DNA of 64,000 nt from Paramecium tetraurelia (Eukaryota). The position numbers and the translations under genes are program-made. The DNA lies in contig CT868009.1 in assembly GCA_000165425.1 (NCBI GenBank), forward strand, positions 1 through 64,000, written 5' to 3'. The notes under the pieces were generated by a model. The model had not been told where the DNA came from. It saw nothing but the letters and a program-made list of their open reading frames with translations, and did not search any database. Positions 1 to 55,740 of the stretch are shown one piece after another. How positions within the stretch are numbered: the stretch's first letter is position 1; each line of letters starts with the position of its first letter.

Positions 1-525
1 TATGTGCTACATTTTTATTGTTTAGGTGCTGCATTAAAGAATTAAAATAAATATACGGAGGCAATTGAGTGTTACGAATAAGCTATTTCCATTATTCCTA
101 GTAATGATAGTGCATGGAATAATAAGGGTAACTAATGTGACATATTACTATTATTTAGGCTCTATCTTAAATGATCTAAATAAATATTTGGAGGCATTAG
201 AGTGTTACGACAAGGCTATTTCCATTAATCCTAAATGTGATATAGCATGGAGTAATAAAGGTAAATTATTTTATAATTAGGTTTTGCATTACATAATTTA
301 AAGAAATATCAAGATGCTGTCGATTGCTATGATAAAGCTCTGTCTATATGTATTAATCCTCTTCGTCTAAAAAGAAAAGGTACACCTATCTAAATTAATA
401 TATATATAGCTGATTCGCTATTTGAGTTGCAGTAGAAAGAAGAAGCTAAAAAGTTATATTAGGATGCTTTAAACAAAGGATCAAATGAGAGGGATTACAT
501 ACAAAGATAACTCGCCAAATTATGA
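1..525 (+). CDS. TPR-repeat protein, 3' part (5' end outside window)
   Basis: Ciliate-code exons 26-127, 159-260 (102 nt each), 281-379 and 410-525, with GT..AG introns 128-158, 261-280 and 380-409. Repeats such as YLEALECYDKAISINPKCDIAWSNKG. TGA at 523-525. Confidence 0.9.
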
Positions 526-544
526 AACACCTTATTTTAATAGA

Positions 545-1720
545 TCAAATCCTTAAGAATTAAATCTCTTCAGTTAAATTCTAAGAATTTTTCAAGTCAA
601 ATCAATTATTTTAGACCTCTTCTTTTAAAATTGATAGGGGAATTAGTTTGAAACAATGTTCATAAGCAAAGTCTGCTAAGGACAAGGGTATGGTATGTTG
701 TTAATTTTGTTAAATCAAAATTAATTACCTTTTGAGATCCAAGTAATGGCATTAAAATATTGTCCTTATTAAATTAAGCATTCCCCTTAAAAATGACATA
801 AACATATTCACCTTTTCATCGCAACGCATTAACATAGTTTGAATCATATTTTAGAACATTGTCTACCTATTATTCCGACTCTTCATATTTGTCGAGCATA
901 TATAAGCACTTAGCTAATATTTATATTAAAATCACCTTTGCAGTATAATGATTTAATGTGATTTGGATCAATTTGTAAAGCTTTATCTGCCCATTTTATA
1001 GCTTCTGCAAATTGGCCAAGTGATTTTAAAGTTAATGCTAAATTTAATGATGATCAATAACATTTCATAGATAATGCAGATAAATTTTCAGCATTCAAAA
1101 CCTAAGATTAATTTAACATCTTAATTGTTGATTCTAACATTTCTTTCTCATTTAAAATGCCTTGTTATTTGCCTAATTAAATTAAAGTCTACCTCCAATT
1201 CCATTCATTTCCAACTATTTGTTATTGTTTTCATTTTATAAACGAAAATTCAAATCTTCTATTCTCAACTTAACAATCAGTTTGATTAAATCATTTTACA
1301 ACTTTTTGACACGGTTAGTTATAGAATACTATGCTTATACTTTAAATTCTTAGAAATATATCATTTCACCAATTGCTACGTTTAATTATTAAACGTTCAT
1401 TCTTACTCTTTCTTTGTTTAGTATAAATTTCAAATTAATCCCTTACTTGAATTTTTCGAATGAGTGAAAGATTGACTCAAATTACTCTGAAATATTATCC
1501 AATAATTTCAGACAATCCTACTCTTAATTACTTAGTTGTTCATTAAATTGAGGCATGTCAATCCATGATTCTAAATGAGCATTTTGAAATTTATTTTAAA
1601 CACATTTCATAAAACAATAATATCAAATCTTTACAAAACTCCTTTAAGCATATCATTTTAATGTTATATTCATGCTCACTATTTTTGGCATTTTATCTCT
1701 AAACATTTCCCTTTACTCAT
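545..1720 (-). pseudogene. Disrupted Cys/His (B-box-like)-coiled-coil-TPR gene
   Basis: ATG at 1718-1720 is followed by frameshifts in the Cys/His N-terminus. TPR exons 936-1037 and 812-913 are 102 nt (FAEAIKWADKALQIDPNHIKSLYCK). There is an in-frame TGA at 816-818 inside a TPR exon, and the 3' end is degenerate (end coordinate approximate). Confidence 0.7.
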
Positions 1721-16988: not shown

Positions 16989-19900
16989 ATGTCTGAATAG
17001 CATTTGCAGGAGAATAAATTTACTTATGTAAATATATTGTAGCTAATTATCTATAGAGTTCAAATCTTGTGATTCAGAGAGAATCTGGACCAAGGACTGA
17101 TGAGCCAACAGGCGAGCCTGAATCATTAGTTGGAAAGATCAACCCAAGAATGATGGGTACGAAAGCTGTGAAAGATAAACCAGTGAAGAGTAAGAGGGAG
17201 CAGAGTTTAAATTTAGGAAAGCAAGTGAACATGGAAATAGAGGAAGGAGTTGGAATGCCAACTTATGAAAATCTATTGTACATCCCGAAAACAAAAGATA
17301 ATAGATTACACTATGAGCGATTATTGTCCATAGTTTATGGACTATTTTAGGAATAATCATAAGATGTGATAAAGTCTATAGTTGATGAAGTATTGGCTAT
17401 AATGAAAAATGATAATTTGAAAGACTCTGAGAAGAGGTAGGAAGTAGAAGCAATAATTGGAAAGTTGACAAATGAGCTATTTTCTGATATAGTATTATCA
17501 AGTAAAGCAATTACTGATTATAATCCTGAAATAACTCAAGGAAATACAGATGAGATGCAATTGCCATTGAATTTGGAAGAAGAACAAGATTCAAGTGATA
17601 TGGAGGAAATAATAGAAGAAGAAGACGATTCTTAGGAATAAAATGAATAAACAATCAAGGCAAAAGTTTAGGTTGAGGAGACAAGAAACAAAGTAGTTGA
17701 TATAGATGGATTTTGGTTATAGCGGGAATTGCAGAAAATATATTAAGACCCAATAGTTGCATAATAAATGGAATAGACAGTCTTAGACATTTTGAAATTA
17801 CAGACTGACATCGAATGTGAAAATTAATTGGTTTCATTGTTTGGCTAGGATCGCTTTGATCTTATCAGATTATTACATGCCAACAGACATAAAATATTTT
17901 ATTGTACTCTCTTAAGCAAGGCCTAGAGTGCTGAGTAAGTAGAATAAATTCATTCTCAAATGAGATAGACATAAGAGGGTCTCTAAATCTTAATGGAATT
18001 ACAGAAAAAAAAGAAAAACGATGCTTAATTTTAAATTATTTAGGAGGAAAACGAGAAATAATATTATGAGTCTATAAATATTACTGATCAAGATCTTTAA
18101 GGACTTTCCAAAAAGATTGTTGATTTAGAGTAATTGCAGTTTGTATCTCAAGGACATTTGATGTCAAATGAGAAATGTCATTTACCTCCTCATTCTTTTA
18201 AAGTAACAAAGAAAGGATATGAAGAGATATACATTCCTGCCCCAAAGCCTAATGTTCATAAAGACAACTTGGTATAAATAGGCGAGTTACCTGAGTTTGC
18301 CTAACAAGCATTCAGAGGATTCAAAGAACTCAATACTATTTAAAGTGTAGTTTATTAAAAGGCATTATTAAGTAATGAGAACATGCTAATTTGTGCTCCT
18401 ACTGGAGCTGGTAAGACTAATATTGCACTTCTAACAATGTTATAAACTATTGGTGATTATTATCAAAATGGTATTGTGGATATTTAGAAATTTAAAATTA
18501 TTTACATAGCACCTATGAAAGCATTAGTAAATGAAATGGTACATAATTTCCAGAATAGATTAGAACCTTATAATATTAAAGTTGCTGAGGTTACTGGAGA
18601 TACTCACCTAACCAAGCATTAGTTGAACACTATCTAAGTATTGATAGCTACTCCAGAGAAATGGGATATTTTAACAAGAAAGATTTAACAAAACGATTTT
18701 ATATCATTGGTAAGATTAGTCATTATTGATGAAATTCATTTATTACATGACAGTAGAGGGCCAGTTATTGAATCAATAATTGCAAGATAATTGAAATTAA
18801 TGGAAGAGAGACAAGAAGTAGTTAGAATCGTGGGATTATCAGCAACACTACCAAATTATTCAGATGTGGCAACATTTATTAGGGTTAAATAAAGTGGAGT
18901 GTTCTTTTTTGACAATTCTTATAGACCAGTTCCATTATAATAATAGTATATTGGAATCAATGAAAAGAAACCAATTAGAAGAATGTTATTAACCAATGAA
19001 ATTTTATATGAGAAAGTCATAGAAAGGATTACAAAGTCACAAATCTTAGTGTTCGTACATTCTAGAAAGGAAACTGTCAAGACAGCTAAAACACTTAAAG
19101 AAATGGCATTTTCAAAAGATGAGTTATCTAAATTTATCAGAGAAGAAAGTTCTTCAAAGAAGATCCTTGAGACAGTAATTGCATAAGAAGATATCAAATC
19201 TGCTGATCTCAAAGAGCTGTTGGCTAGTGGAATAGCCATTCATCATGCTGGTTTATGCAGAGGAGATAGAGATTTAGTTGAAAGTCTTTTTGAAAAGAAG
19301 AATATACAGATTTTGATATCTACTTCTACTTTGGCATGGGGAGTGAATCTTCCTGCTCATACAGTTATCATAAAAGGAACACAAATTTATTCACCGGATT
19401 AAGGAAAGTGGATAGAGTTAAGTCCTTAGGATATATTACAAATGATGGGTAGAGCTGGTCGACCTAGATACGATACATCTGGGGAGGGAATAATATTGAC
19501 TACATATTAAGAACTCAAATATTACTTATCATTATTGAATGTTCAATTACCAATAGAATCATAATTTGTATCTTAATTAGCTGACCAATTAAATGCTGAA
19601 GTTGCCTAAGGTAATATCAAGAATCTGAAGGATGGAGTAAATTGGTTAGGATATACTTATTTATATGTAAGAATGCTAAGAAATCCATAATTGTATAATA
19701 TTCCAGACTATAGCAATGATTAGGCATTAATCAAATATCGTGCTGATCTAATTCATTCTGCATGTTTACTATTAGATAAGAATAGTTTGGTGACTTATGA
19801 TAAGAAAACTGGAAATATCGAGAGTACCATCTTAGGTAAGATTGCTAGTAATTATTACATTAAATATCCAAGTATGCAAGTGTACAATCAACATTTAAAA

Positions 19901-40004: not shown

Positions 40005-41466
40005 ATGATATAATTGCGTTGTAAAGTACCTTAACATAATGCAGGGATAATTGAATTTTATTGTTTTAGCAATAACTGCAAAGAGAATAGATTAAGCTGT
40101 TTATAATGCCTCGTAGATGCTAAACATAAAGGTCATCAAGTCTTGAAAATGTCATAAATGAGTGAACACACTTAAGAATTTCAAGGAAAATGTTAAGAAA
40201 TTATCGAAAACTTATCTATTTTTAAATTTCATTTAGATGGTTGTATTGATGAATTGATTAAAAACTTACAAGAAAAATTCTAATAAGAACCAAATAACAT
40301 AGGTCAATTCACTTATGATTAATTCTAATCTTATCTATCAGGGCTCCTAGATTTTGATAAAGATAAAAATATGATAGATAATGATGTGATTGAATTTCTA
40401 AAATTAACCACAAATAATATTAATGATGCTGTTGAGAAGCTTGAAGTAAAAGCAAGCTTGCATTACTAAGCTCCTCCTGAAATGCAATAAAAAGTGAGAG
40501 ATCTATAAAACTAGGGTTTATTCTTATAAGATATTTTTAGGGACTTAATTATTCTAAAATAACAATATCATGGGGGCTTAAGATATTATGAATTAAACCT
40601 TAATATTAGATCCTAACAACAAAGTTTCTTTAGTAATGAAGGGTATTCATTATACATTAAATTTTAGGTAAATTACTACTTTCTTAAACTAAAAATTGTG
40701 AAGCTTAAGCTACTTTTGAGAGATTGCTGAAAATTGATCCTAATAACATAGATGCAATTAATGGTTTAGGTATGAATTGATTTATGTCTAGGGGATTGCT
40801 TAAGAGAAAGATCTAAACATGAGGATGCACTAAAACAGTTCGAAAAAATACTTTAACTGGATTAAAACAATAAACAAGCCTTGCTCGGAAAAGGTATTAA
40901 ATGTAATTATAAAATTAAGCTTCTTGTTTAGGAAAATAGAGAAAATTTCCAGAAGCTAAATTAATATATGAAAGAATATTAGATTAAGATAAAAAGGAAA
41001 TTGAAGCAATTTGGGGTTTGGGTATTTAAATTATTAAATTTCAATAGCTGATCTCTTAAGAATTTAAGGGAAAGATGAAGAAGCAATAAAGTAATATAAT
41101 AAAGTATTATAATTAAATTAAAATCATTTGAATTCAATAAGTGGTTTGGGTATTATATGAATATTAAACAATTTCAATAGGTGAATGTTATAGACTACTT
41201 GGAAAACATGATGAGGCAATGAAATATTTGAAAAAAGCATTGCAAATAAATTCCAGACATGTATTAACTTTAGCTAGAATGGGTAAAACATGATTTATAT
41301 AATTAGGGGATTGCCTAAGACAACAAAAGAAATTTTTAGAGGCTATAAATTATTATAGCGAAGCCTTAGCCATAGATCCTCAAGATGAGTGGTCTCAGTC
41401 CAAATTGAGTAAGGTTTTATCTTATTTCAAGGTGAATGTAGAATAAATAGTCAAAGAATAATGTGA
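40005..41466 (+). CDS. B-box-like + coiled-coil + 7 TPR protein (copy A)
   Basis: N-term CKVPQH-x8-CFSNNC-x6-CLQC-x5-HKGH. Seven consecutive 102-nt exons: 40541-40642, 40668-40769, 40792-40893, 40920-41021, 41048-41149, 41181-41282 and 41307-41408. TGA at 41464-41466. Confidence 0.92.
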
Positions 41467-41506
41467 TTTTTAAAATGATATTAAGATTATTAACAAGAAT
41501 ATTATA

Positions 41507-42844
41507 TCAATCTTTACTGAGCTTAACTACTTTCGCTGGAGTATTGGCCCCTAATTTTTTGTTAGCAATTTTTCCATTAATCCATTAACCTTTAAAAGTA
41601 TTTCCATTGCATTTAATGATTTATCCATTTCCATGTTAAAGTCCTGCTTTCCAACATCCCAAATACTTTTAATTATTAGGCCAAATTAAAACACCATATC
41701 CTTCTCTCAAATCATTTATATATTGGCCATCATATTTTCTTCCATCTGGCCATTCGAAGACTCCTTTACCATTTTTGATACCATTTTTCCATTCTCCAGT
41801 GTATATTCTTCCATCAAAGAAGATTAAAGTTCCAAATCCTGAAATCAAATCATTTTCAAATCTGCCTTGATATATAGATCCATCGGGATATACCAATTTG
41901 CCCAACCCACTTTTAAATCCATCTATAAAACTTCCTAGCCTTGGAATACACATCAAAATTTACCCTCATATGTCCATCCACCAGAATACGTTTATACTCC
42001 ATGCCCATTAGGTAGGTCATTTTACCATTCACCATCATAATATGTGCCATTAGAGAATGTATACTTTCCTTTGCCTTAAACTTGCCCATCAACCCAAGTA
42101 CCTAAAAACAAATCTCCATTTGAATGTTAAAATGTGCCTTAACCATATGGTTTATTTTCAAACAATTCTCCTATGTAGAATGAATTTTCAGATAAAATAT
42201 ACTTACCAAAACCATGCATCATTCCATTCTTCCATTAACCTTCATAAAAGCAACCATTTTAGAGTTAGATACAAGGGAATTTCTGCTATTACTTGGTTGA
42301 GACTAATAATTAGTCTTATTTTTGTAACGGTATGTAGCATAGCCCATTCATTTCTGCAGAGATAGCTATAGGAGTGCTTGGAGGCCTGCTGATATCTGAA
42401 AAGGAACTAGCATCATCCTTAATGTCCTTATTTATGTGTAAAGTAATATCTGCAATGCAAAACTATTTTACATTGCTTTCTTGCTACTCATCCTATTTTT
42501 GAGGCAATCTTTTCTAGGATTATTGAATTTAAATAGTATTCTTTTTAATTTATGAAGTTTTCTCTATAATCAAACCATTGTGAGAACTCTTTTAATCTAA
42601 AATTGAAGAACTTTGTTTCTGAGCAGTTGATCTAGATAATTTAGAGTGAAATTTTCTATGTGAAATTAAGATAATACTTTCTAATTAAATAGCCTCTGAA
42701 ATGCGCTTGTATTTTAATCAATCCATTATATTCTTATTTGTCTATCTTCTTTTCAATTTGTTGCTTACTCTTTGTTGTTCTTACAGTCAATATCTCTTGG
42801 GTCTTATTTGGGGCAGAATCATTACACTGCTAACAATTTCCCAT
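41507..42844 (-). CDS. N-acylated IQ-motif MORN-repeat protein
   Basis: MGNCQQC (Gly2/Cys4/Cys7), IQ motif LIKIQAHFRGYLIRK, and about 9 MORN repeats (YTGEWKNGIKNGKGVFEWPDG). TGA at 41507-41509. Confidence 0.9.
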
Positions 42845-53880: not shown

Positions 53881-55332
53881 ATGAGAATGTTTTCTTATAA
53901 TTGCATAGAATAAATACATAAAAATCACCAGATTGACTTTTATTGCTTCAATCCGGATTGTTAAGACAGAAAATTATTTTGTTTAGAATGTTTATAATCA
54001 GGAATGCATCTTGGGCATGCTCATAAATTAGATGATATTGATAGACATAGAATAAAAATTTATGATAAATGCAAAGCCCTTATTGACTAATTAAACGATT
54101 ATAAACTTCATATCCTAAATTTTCTGGAACTATTAACCAAAACTTTACAATAGAAATTCTAAACCCCACCAAAATCAAATTATAGCTTTGATCAATTAGA
54201 ATCTTACATTAATACGCTTTTAGATTTTGAAACCAATTAATCGTAAGTAGAAAATAAAGTAATTAAATACCTCTTGAAATCTTAAAGTAACATTTAGGAT
54301 GTTATTATACAACTTGAAGTAAAAGAACGTTTACATTACTAAGCTCCTTCTACGAGCTTACAAAGAGTGAGAGATTTATAAAGATAAAGTTTTATAATTT
54401 TTTATTTAGGTACTCAATTATTCTAAAATAATGAACTCCAGAAGGCTCAAGATATCTTGGATCAAACATTGGATTTAGATCCTAATAACCCAACTTCTTT
54501 AGCATTGTAGGGTATTCATTATTACAAAAACAATAGGTAATCTACTACTTTCTAAAGCTAAATATACTGAAGCCTATAATATCTTTTCGAAACTGAACAA
54601 GATAGATCCAAATCATATTTAAGGATTAAATGGATTAGGTATGCATACTTTTATATCAGGTGATTCTTTAAGAGCAATAAAAAATTGTTCTGTAGCATTA
54701 GAAGAATATAAAAAGGTACTTGCGTTAGATTCCCTAAATGTATAAGCCTTGATAGGAAAAGGTATTAAACTCAAAATATAAATTTTAGCATATTGTTTAG
54801 GGTAAAAATAAAAATTTCAAAAAGCCTAATAAATTTATGATTAGATATTATTTAAGGAACCAGCAAATGTCTAGGCAATTTTTGGTCAAGGTATTTTTGT
54901 AAATAAGATTACGAAAGCTGAGCTTCTAAGAATAAAAGAGAAATTTGATGAAGCTATAACCTTGTATGATAAAGCCCTATCATTAAATAAAAATCACATA
55001 GAATCATTAAGTGGAAAAGGTATTGTTATATTGTTTAACAATATGAATAGGGGATTGTTATAGATCACTTGGAAAATTTAGAGATGCAATGGTTTGTTTG
55101 AAAAAAGCAGAAGAACTAAATCCCCTAAATAGCTAAACTTTAATTAGAATTGGTAAAAATGATTTATACAATTAGGGGATTGCTTAAAATTAGAAGAGAA
55201 ACTTACAGAAGCCTATTCTTATTATGAAAAAGCCTTAAAAATCAATCCTCTAGACGAATGGTCTTAGTTAAAAATGGGTAAGCATTCATCCTATTTGAAG
55301 ATCAATGCAAAAACAATATTCGATTTATATGA
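53881..55332 (+). CDS. B-box-like + coiled-coil + 7 TPR protein (copy B, paralog of 40005-41466)
   Basis: CIEQIH-x8-CFNPDC-x6-CLEC-x5-HLGH. 102-nt exons 54410-54511, 54537-54638, 54660-54761, 54789-54890, 54918-55019, 55051-55152 and 55176-55277 have the same intron positions as copy A. Confidence 0.92.
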
Positions 55333-55365
55333 TTGTGAGGTTTTTCACATATTAACAATATTATA

Positions 55366-55740
55366 TCAATGATTTGTAATTTAACTACTTGCCTGGAATA
55401 TCAATGGTTAATTCAGTGGCAATTTTCCATCAACCCATTAACTATTAAAGTATTTCTTACCATTACATTTATAATTTTCTATTTCATGTTGATATCATTC
55501 TTTTCAAAACCTCTAATACCATTAACCACAAGTACGTATTAAACACGATATACTTCCCTCAAATCGTATAAGGTTTGATAATAATCAAATCCTTCCATAA
55601 GACTATTTTCATCTTCATTTACTTGATACTAGATCGATTATATTTATCAATATATTCAATCCACTTTATTCCATCTTTAAATCCTTCAACCCTTGGAGTC
55701 CATATCAAATTTTCTCTCAAACTTACCTTACATTTTCCAC
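55366..55740 (-). pseudogene. Truncated, degraded copy of the MORN gene 3' part
   Basis: Colinear similarity to 41500-41970, e.g. attatatcaa, ttaactactt, gcaattttcca, ccattaac..aaagtatttc, ctcaaatc and ccttgga..catcaaatt. No open frame remains. Confidence 0.7.

What the first reader, a model, noticed from the sequence alone, without database searches (positions are those of the whole stretch)
40541..41431. One exon = one TPR: arrays of exact 102-nt phase-1 exon cassettes
Seen: seven consecutive exons of exactly 102 nt (34 codons, one TPR period), each flanked by phase-1 introns that mostly split a conserved small-residue codon (G|GT, G|CT). The same geometry occurs at 54410-55277 (7 exons), 26-260 and 812-1037. 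Other repeat genes here (MORN, LRR, ankyrin, HEAT) show no such periodic introns. Inference: symmetric cassettes can be duplicated, skipped or swapped without frameshift, a ready substrate for diversifying binding surfaces. This is analogous to fixed-length repeat exons known from Tetrahymena LRR genes and brown-algal TPR/LRR genes.
Basis: partly seen in the sequence, partly recalled or inferred. Interest (0 to 1): 0.72.

Follow-up and report, generated by a model that had tools for sequence, protein, structure and literature searches.

The report
Paramecium TPR arrays, one intron each
This is an old, unchanged member of a large Paramecium gene family in which every protein repeat carries a tiny intron at the same spot, and whose young members are still gaining repeats and quickly changing their binding surface, as recognition proteins do.

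Summary
Observation confirmed: seven 102-nt phase-1 exons at 40541-41408 and seven in paralog B. No other exon length chains beyond 3 in the window. Genome-wide there are 75 paired matches at 102 nt, none at 99 or 105. The reading needs correction. Each intron splits TPR position 8, inside helix A, so an exon is one period, not one folded repeat. The focal gene is frozen: same seven repeats in B and two other species, groove conserved, no skipping in ~200 RNA reads (weak test). The family is dynamic: 72 arrays of 2-42 repeats, near contig ends. Young arrays duplicate exon plus intron within the gene, also recombine inside exons, and show dN/dS 1.5-2.2 at groove positions versus ~0.36 elsewhere (1.2, not significant, in one conservative test). 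Exchange between genes is not shown. New: gene A's head is a B-box-2-like finger plus coiled coil, TRIM-like but RING-less; relatives join it to TPR, WD40 or SPRY. The kind is known (Tetrahymena LRR, Ectocarpus); this Paramecium form was not found in ten literature searches. The scan noted repeat-per-exon TPR genes in two other protists, judged stable there.

The parts
40005..40515 (+). Gene A exon 1: B-box-2-like zinc finger (C6 H11 C20 C25 C32 C35 H41 H44) and coiled coil; ends in the first half of helix A of repeat 1
40516..40540 (+). Gene A intron 1 (25 nt, phase 1)
40541..40642 (+). Gene A 102-nt exon 1 (TPR position 8 to next position 8)
40668..40769 (+). Gene A 102-nt exon 2
40792..40893 (+). 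Gene A 102-nt exon 3
40920..41021 (+). Gene A 102-nt exon 4 (upstream intron ends in AAG)
41048..41149 (+). Gene A 102-nt exon 5
41150..41180 (+). Intron of 31 nt, seen spliced out in 5 RNA reads of 2 runs
41181..41282 (+). Gene A 102-nt exon 6
41307..41408 (+). Gene A 102-nt exon 7; its join to exon 6 is supported by loose read ends
41432..41466 (+). Gene A last exon, capping helix and TGA; protein 419 aa
53881..55332 (+). Gene B: intact colinear paralog, same head and seven 102-nt exons (54410-55277), 417 aa, about 70% nt identity to A
26..525 (+). Gene C: 3' end of a TPR array cut by the contig start; two 102-nt exons, one 99-nt exon, last exon
786..1700 (-). Gene D: decayed member; broken head, two 102-nt exons (1037-936 and 913-812, the second with in-frame TGA); 89% identical to a likewise broken copy on G000:C114; outer limits approximate

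Best explanation
Gene A is an old, expressed, stabilised member of a lineage-expanded Paramecium family of binding proteins. Its layout is a B-box-like zinc finger and coiled coil followed by a TPR superhelix. One small phase-1 intron once lay in the Gly-8 codon of a founder repeat (inferred). In-register unequal crossing-over and conversion within the gene then copied exon plus intron again and again, which by itself yields exact 102-nt symmetric exons. The unit of about 127 nt, not the exon, is what is copied, and breakpoints can lie inside exons. Young arrays near chromosome ends still do this, and selection diversifies groove residues 2, 5, 9 and 12. Older copies such as A and B have settled on a fixed repeat order. 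Shown: geometry, family breadth, intragenic duplication with introns, groove dN/dS above 1 among the closest copies, stasis of A. Inferred: dimerisation through the coiled coil, ligand binding in the groove, and a role in recognising fast-changing, perhaps foreign, molecules.
For: 72 arrays and 659 exons in the fetched loci; 633 of 716 junctions exact and 6 fused. The split codon is Gly/Ala/Ser in 592 of 612. Exon pairs at 90% identity or more: 229 within arrays, 22 between; all 9 identical pairs are within arrays. Intron similarity is 0.55-0.81 inside 12 young arrays, against 0.34 between genes and 0.27 in gene B. A recombination signal inside the exon appears in 7 of 14 arrays, and 3 of 260 exons are clean intra-exon chimeras. 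Codon model: groove omega 2.23 (72 pairs, 18 arrays; bootstrap 1.8-2.75) and 1.45 (170 pairs, 27 arrays), rest 0.34-0.38. Fourteen simulations with a neutral groove gave 0.69-1.16. The groove set 2,5,6,9,12,13 was fixed beforehand and is the ligand-contact set in PMC1261162. Head and array similarity correlate (rho 0.58, 29 genes). 32 of 52 arrays vs 2 of 16 intron-poor TPR clusters lie in the outer fifth of long contigs. The head profile hits the MID2 B-box at E 3e-4, and its model ranks TRIM chains first.
Against: With a separate synonymous rate for the groove, omega falls to 2.0 (p 0.011) for close pairs and 1.21 (p 0.15) for the wider set. Raw local pN/pS was 1.12 (0.88-1.58). The omega method uses spanning-tree pairs, not a full tree. 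The youngest arrays sit on small contigs or contig ends (15 of 72 within 400 nt), so mis-assembly could create some near-identical copies or chimeras and some 'arrays' may be pieces of one gene. Only 3 clean chimeras were found, and linkage within an exon (0.25) was not lower than across an intron (0.10; p 0.17). Fold matches to TRIMs are weak: no Foldseek E below 0.001, best Z 6.7. No ligand, location or induction data exist here.
Confidence: 0.68

Rival explanations
1. True exon-cassette system: exons are swapped between genes through the introns, or skipped by splicing, to build a combinatorial repertoire.
For: All cassettes are symmetric and skippable in frame. 22 exon pairs at 90% or more lie in different arrays. 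Within-exon linkage was nominally higher than across-intron linkage. One long array has a TGA in one exon (G000:C59), which skipping would bypass. Tetrahymena LRR genes are reported to shuffle (PMC6564038).
Against: No skipped joint in about 200 reads on gene A (mean depth about 4, weak). The between-array pairs are confined to C265/C593 and C60/C603/C618/C687, all assembly fragments. Arrays follow their heads. Intra-exon recombination exists. Introns of about 25 nt are a small target for crossovers and probably favour intron-defined splicing (recalled).
Confidence: 0.12
2. Non-adaptive churn: subtelomeric repeats expand and decay by drift, and the groove is merely unconstrained.
For: Decayed copies exist (gene D and its C114 twin). 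Groove omega is not significantly above 1 in the wider set with its own synonymous rate. Surface TPR positions are variable in all organisms (PMC1261162).
Against: Omega is 2.0-2.2 among the closest pairs, above 1 in 17 of 18 arrays, with positions 2, 5, 9 and 12 individually significant. Neutral simulations never exceeded 1.16. Only 2 of 659 exons carry a stop.
Confidence: 0.15
3. Ancient housekeeping adaptors with one shared intron position; the apparent youth of some arrays is assembly artefact.
For: A and B are stable across species. Long repeat arrays break this assembly.
Against: Young arrays differ at chosen codons and in their introns rather than being identical: only 9 identical pairs among 659 exons. 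Several lie deep inside long contigs (C24, C447, C678). Named relatives were all aurelia-complex Paramecium (19 of 20 looked up).
Confidence: 0.05

Closest known systems
Tetrahymena 90-bp-exon LRR genes (Xiong et al. 2019, PMC6564038; passages read)
   Same: Ciliate repeat genes with one fixed-length exon per period, a single intron phase, age classes, subtelomeric enrichment of young genes, and unequal crossing-over proposed.
   Different: LRR, 90 bp, phase 2, longer introns, thousands of genes, linked to a LINE element. The text has no '102' and says P. tetraurelia LRR genes lack the 90-bp peak. Here: TPR, 102 nt, phase 1, introns of 20-33 nt, at least 72 arrays, no sign of transfer between unrelated genes.
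Ectocarpus NB-ARC-TPR candidate immune receptors (Zambounis et al., PMC3341825; passages read)
   Same: One TPR period per exon, diversifying selection on the repeats, high gene birth and death.
   Different: 42-residue exons holding a whole TPR plus linker, an NB-ARC head, and spare exons inside introns. Here the exon is 34 codons cut in mid-helix, the introns are too small to hold spare exons, and the head is B-box-like plus coiled coil.
TRIM/RBCC and RING-less TRIM-like proteins (Sardiello et al. 2008, PMC2533329; passages read)
   Same: B-box-2-type eight-ligand finger followed by a coiled coil and a variable C-terminal domain; relatives of this head carry SPRY or WD40.
   Different: No RING. 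Ligand spacing is longer than in MID2. 'TPR' does not occur in that paper, which calls the tripartite motif metazoan-specific while noting B-boxes in some protists.
IES-rich TPR genes of P. tetraurelia (Vitali et al. 2019, PMC6771405; section 11 and passages read)
   Same: TPR genes with repeated 'TPR coding exons'; function stated as unknown. Probably the same family (inference).
   Different: That paper reports IES density (1135 IESs; IESs at the 5' end of TPR exons in one example gene) and temperature-dependent retention. In what I read it does not give the 102-nt phase-1 geometry, the head domain or selection on the groove. Its figure and supplements were not seen.

Membership tests
TPR repeat proteins | 34-residue helix-turn-helix repeats matching TPR profiles | tested here: met
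   5 of 7 gene-A exons hit TPR families singly; ortholog P0003 TPR_1 E 6.5e-32; paired helices at 34-residue period, top fold hits consensus TPR and OGT
Repeat-per-exon shuffling genes (Tetrahymena LRR / Ectocarpus type) | Tandem arrays of fixed-length exons with one intron phase | tested here: met
Repeat-per-exon shuffling genes (Tetrahymena LRR / Ectocarpus type) | Recent change in repeat number within genes | tested here: met
   Met for the family; not for focal genes A and B
Repeat-per-exon shuffling genes (Tetrahymena LRR / Ectocarpus type) | Near-identical exons shared between unrelated genes | tested here: inconclusive
   22 between-array pairs at 90% or more, all among assembly fragments of two subfamilies; 0 of 9 identical pairs between arrays; the sample is not the whole genome
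Repeat-per-exon shuffling genes (Tetrahymena LRR / Ectocarpus type) | Exon equals one structural repeat | tested here: not met
   Intron at TPR position 8, inside helix A
Repeat-per-exon shuffling genes (Tetrahymena LRR / Ectocarpus type) | Diversifying selection on the binding surface | tested here: met
   Young arrays: omega 2.0-2.2 among close pairs; not significant in the wider set under the conservative model; absent in gene A
Repeat-per-exon shuffling genes (Tetrahymena LRR / Ectocarpus type) | Alternative exon skipping | tested here: inconclusive
Ectocarpus NB-ARC-TPR | NB-ARC domain before the TPRs | tested here: not met
   Pfam on the heads of A and B and on P0003 shows no NB-ARC
TRIM/RBCC | B-box with eight Cys/His zinc ligands | tested here: met
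   Six invariant and two nearly invariant ligands in 33 heads; all align to the MID2 and MID1 B-box, E 3e-4 and 0.008; Pfam zf-B_box only below cut-off, 3 of 14
TRIM/RBCC | Coiled coil directly after the B-box, TRIM-like fold | tested here: inconclusive
   Model pLDDT 92 with helices 49-93, 104-115 and 117-150; TRIM72 and KAP1 rank first but at E 0.02 and Z 6.7, rmsd 5.2, 83 aligned; dimer not tested
TRIM/RBCC | N-terminal RING domain | tested here: not met
   The finger starts at residue 6 of A, P0003 and P0004; a RING pattern matched none of the stored proteins in their first 120 residues
TRIM/RBCC | Ubiquitin-ligase or restriction activity | not testable with these tools
   Needs bench work

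The most novel reading that the evidence does not exclude
Paramecium has a RING-less TRIM-like intracellular surveillance repertoire. A shared B-box and coiled-coil head clusters interchangeable sensor ends (TPR, WD40, SPRY) or effector ends (AIG1 GTPase, alpha-kinase). The TPR branch diversifies its groove in an arms race with symbionts, viruses or transposons through duplication of exon-intron units. If these are the IES-rich TPR genes of Vitali et al., each germline unit may also carry an IES next to groove codons 9-13, so programmed DNA elimination could tune the repertoire in each new macronucleus.
Probability: 0.25. Interest if true: 0.85.

Novelty: new variant of a known kind. Interest (0 to 1): 0.58.

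Why it matters
It gives Paramecium its own, independently built counterpart of the Tetrahymena LRR and brown-algal repeat arrays, with a different repeat and intron phase. This suggests that ciliates repeatedly evolve fast-changing binding repertoires. It also offers a testable identity for the abundant TPR genes of unknown function: B-box/coiled-coil proteins with a groove under selection, candidates for the poorly known recognition side of ciliate defence. Mechanistically it cautions that exact symmetric exons can be a by-product of repeat duplication and need not mean shuffling at introns. The gene at the given coordinates is itself an ordinary, stable member.

Tried and rejected
My own idea that the exchanged unit is centred on the intron, with helix-A halves travelling together, was not supported: across-intron linkage was higher in only 5 of 13 arrays, p 0.17. 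The first codon-model run left one parameter stuck at its start and was replaced. A metagenome scan for the two-exon TPR geometry gave 18 loci, none a cassette gene; one was a bacterial-type intronless TPR protein. This says little about range, since ciliate DNA is probably rare there. Two DNA runs laid on gene A showed no insertions, but their library type is unknown, so this does not test for IESs. A profile search of the own genome was not available, so the head family was sampled with one protein (33 hits, a lower bound). Atlas structure hits to TRIM clusters were all under the tool's bar and are leads only. The reversed control is not independent, because it matches inside the arrays, and was not used. 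Literature: ten searches found no description of 102-nt TPR exons or B-box-coiled-coil-TPR proteins in Paramecium. Term look-ups found no 'TPR' in PMC5014332 or PMC13685798. PMC3464196 mentions IES copies through TPR expansion and PMC8670300 calls the domain extremely abundant (one passage each). PMC13059789 overexpressed one TPR gene of another species (passages). PMC1553488 was read in passages for general context. No supplements were opened, those of Xiong 2019 and Vitali 2019 could bear on novelty, and subscription journals are mostly not in the library.

Full report
Setting. The window is G000:C26:1-64000 of a 72-Mb genome, about 27% G+C, read with code 6 and with introns of 20-33 nt. Named relatives are species of the Paramecium aurelia complex, so I treat it as a macronuclear genome of that group.

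Observation. Among exon lengths 30-300 on both strands only 102 gave chains above 3. Paralog B has seven as well. The two small sites are a gene cut by the contig start and a decayed gene with a TGA in its second exon. Across the genome a two-exon pattern matched 75 times at 102 nt and never at 99 or 105. Gene A is transcribed from the + strand in two RNA runs (90 and 109 reads). One intron was seen as a joint and a second through loose ends. No skipped exon appeared, but depth was only about 4.

Anatomy. Gene A runs 40005-41466 and encodes 419 residues. Each intron splits TPR position 8, a Gly, Ala or Ser codon in 592 of 612 family junctions. In a model of the P. octaurelia ortholog P0003, all eight junctions (residues 170, 204 ... 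408, by my count) lie inside a helix. An exon is therefore half of helix A, helix B and half of the next helix A, and the ligand-contact positions 2, 5, 6 and 9, 12, 13 (PMC1261162) flank the intron. The first exon encodes a finger with eight Cys/His ligands that aligns to the MID2 and MID1 B-boxes (E 3e-4, 0.008). A confident model shows long helices after it. TRIM72, KAP1 and other TRIM chains rank first in two fold searches but with weak scores. There is no RING.

The focal gene is frozen. A, B, P0003 and a P. pentaurelia protein (P0004) all have seven repeats, and 41 of 42 best matches lie on the diagonal. Groove identity of A to P0003 is 34/42 against 147/189 elsewhere. Exons within A are only 35-59% alike. 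The duplication that made A and B also copied the end of the neighbouring MORN gene, which has decayed beside B.

The family. I fetched loci from three seeds: the pattern, an intron-blind Pfam search and one head sequence. They held 90 TPR clusters: 72 cassette arrays, 17 intron-poor and 1 other. The pattern-seeded 42 are cassette by construction. The Pfam-seeded new loci split 15 to 17, so not all TPR genes are built this way. Of 16 TPR clusters in head-seeded loci 15 were cassette arrays and none intron-poor. The finger was found before 30 of 72 arrays (many are truncated) and before 0 of 17 intron-poor clusters. Of 716 junctions, 633 were exact, 39 intron-sized but irregular, 38 longer gaps and 6 fused; 2 of 659 exons carry a stop. 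Arrays hold 2-42 repeats, and 15 of 72 touch a contig end, so some may be pieces of one gene. On long contigs 32 of 52 arrays lie in the outer fifth, against 2 of 16 intron-poor clusters; the excess remains without the outermost 2%.

How arrays change. Exon pairs at 90% identity or more are mostly within arrays (229 vs 22), and the 22 involve assembly fragments of two subfamilies. Introns are homogenised within young arrays, so exon and intron are copied together. Recombination inside exons was detected in 7 of 14 arrays, with 3 clean chimeras among 260 exons. In the clearest (C22), the middle exon has the front of its right neighbour and the back of its left one, as expected from duplicating a unit that straddles an intron. 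A general linkage test did not separate exon-centred from intron-centred units. Arrays track their heads (rho 0.58; nearest head among the two nearest arrays in 22 of 29), while close paralogs differ in repeat count (8 vs 21, 8 vs 17). Inference: any in-register crossover keeps the frame, so exact symmetric exons follow from duplication of a repeat that already held an intron, and the introns need not drive it.

Selection. On spanning-tree pairs of close units within arrays (pairs above the distance cut-off and identical pairs were left out), groove omega was 2.23 at up to 10% distance and 1.45 at up to 20%, the rest 0.34-0.38. Positions 2, 9 and 12 passed correction in both sets, 5 in the close set. 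Allowing the groove its own synonymous rate gave 2.0 (p 0.011) and 1.21 (p 0.15). Simple counts gave 1.35 against global pS but 1.12 against local pS. Fourteen simulations with a neutral groove, five with conversion, gave 0.69-1.16. I read this as good but not final evidence of diversifying selection in the youngest arrays.

The head is modular. The same head precedes an intronless WD40 propeller in 6 of 7 non-TPR frames tested. A profile found 420 relatives. Of 153 stored proteins 71 had two or more TPRs. Among 17 picked by eye, 4 hit SPRY (2 above cut-off), 1 AIG1 and 2 alpha-kinase. Nineteen of 20 looked up were named, all aurelia-complex. B-box, coiled coil and SPRY is the TRIM order without RING; the family works like TRIM-type adaptors by layout but fails the membership test.

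Comparison and verdict. The kind is known from Tetrahymena LRR genes (PMC6564038) and Ectocarpus NB-ARC-TPR genes, whose exons are 42 residues (PMC3341825). Vitali et al. (PMC6771405) describe IES-dense TPR genes of unknown function in P. tetraurelia, probably this family; I could not test the IES link. My ten searches found no account of the 102-nt phase-1 geometry, the head or the groove selection. Two earlier scan notes describe repeat-per-exon TPR genes in other protists as stable (unchecked), which matches genes A and B but not the young arrays. Verdict: real; new variant of a known kind; interest 0.58.

Noticed in passing
window 41500-42300 (-) and 55330-55560 (-): A MORN-repeat gene converges on gene A; a decayed copy of its 3' end lies beside gene B, so A and B came from a local segmental duplication.
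   Followed up: partly
G000 cassette arrays (e.g. C678, C78, C8, C413): 12 of 626 junctions have GC instead of GT exactly at the donor position and 14 have other letters: possible GC-AG introns or dead splice sites.
   Followed up: partly
L037:1245-1346 (G000:C59): An array of about 37 repeats has an in-frame TGA in its fifth exon: pseudogene, sequencing error or a skipped exon.
   Followed up: no
G000 cassette arrays: 183 of 612 introns are multiples of three and 139 of these lack an in-frame TGA; this seems higher than the genome-wide share I recall, not checked.
   Followed up: no
P0038, P0108, P0119, P0133, P0063, P0012, P0084: The same B-box-like and coiled-coil head is joined to SPRY, AIG1-type GTPase or vWA/alpha-kinase domains in aurelia-complex proteins.
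   Followed up: partly
L107, L109, L114, L118, L122, L124: Single-exon genes of 460-480 codons with the same head and a WD40 propeller.
   Followed up: partly
window 40185-40298: Near-zero RNA depth in both runs inside exon 1 of gene A, although the stretch is conserved coding sequence in P0003; probably low coverage.
   Followed up: no
window about 18350-18450 (+): A frame with a Walker A motif typical of Ski2-type helicases (label recalled), seen as a chance candidate.
   Followed up: no
L064/L100 (G000:C11) and L088 (G000:C26): Two long colinear arrays at 66-82% identity without the zinc-finger pattern in the upstream stretch read; their best-match order is offset at two places, which may be repeat gains or losses.
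   Followed up: no
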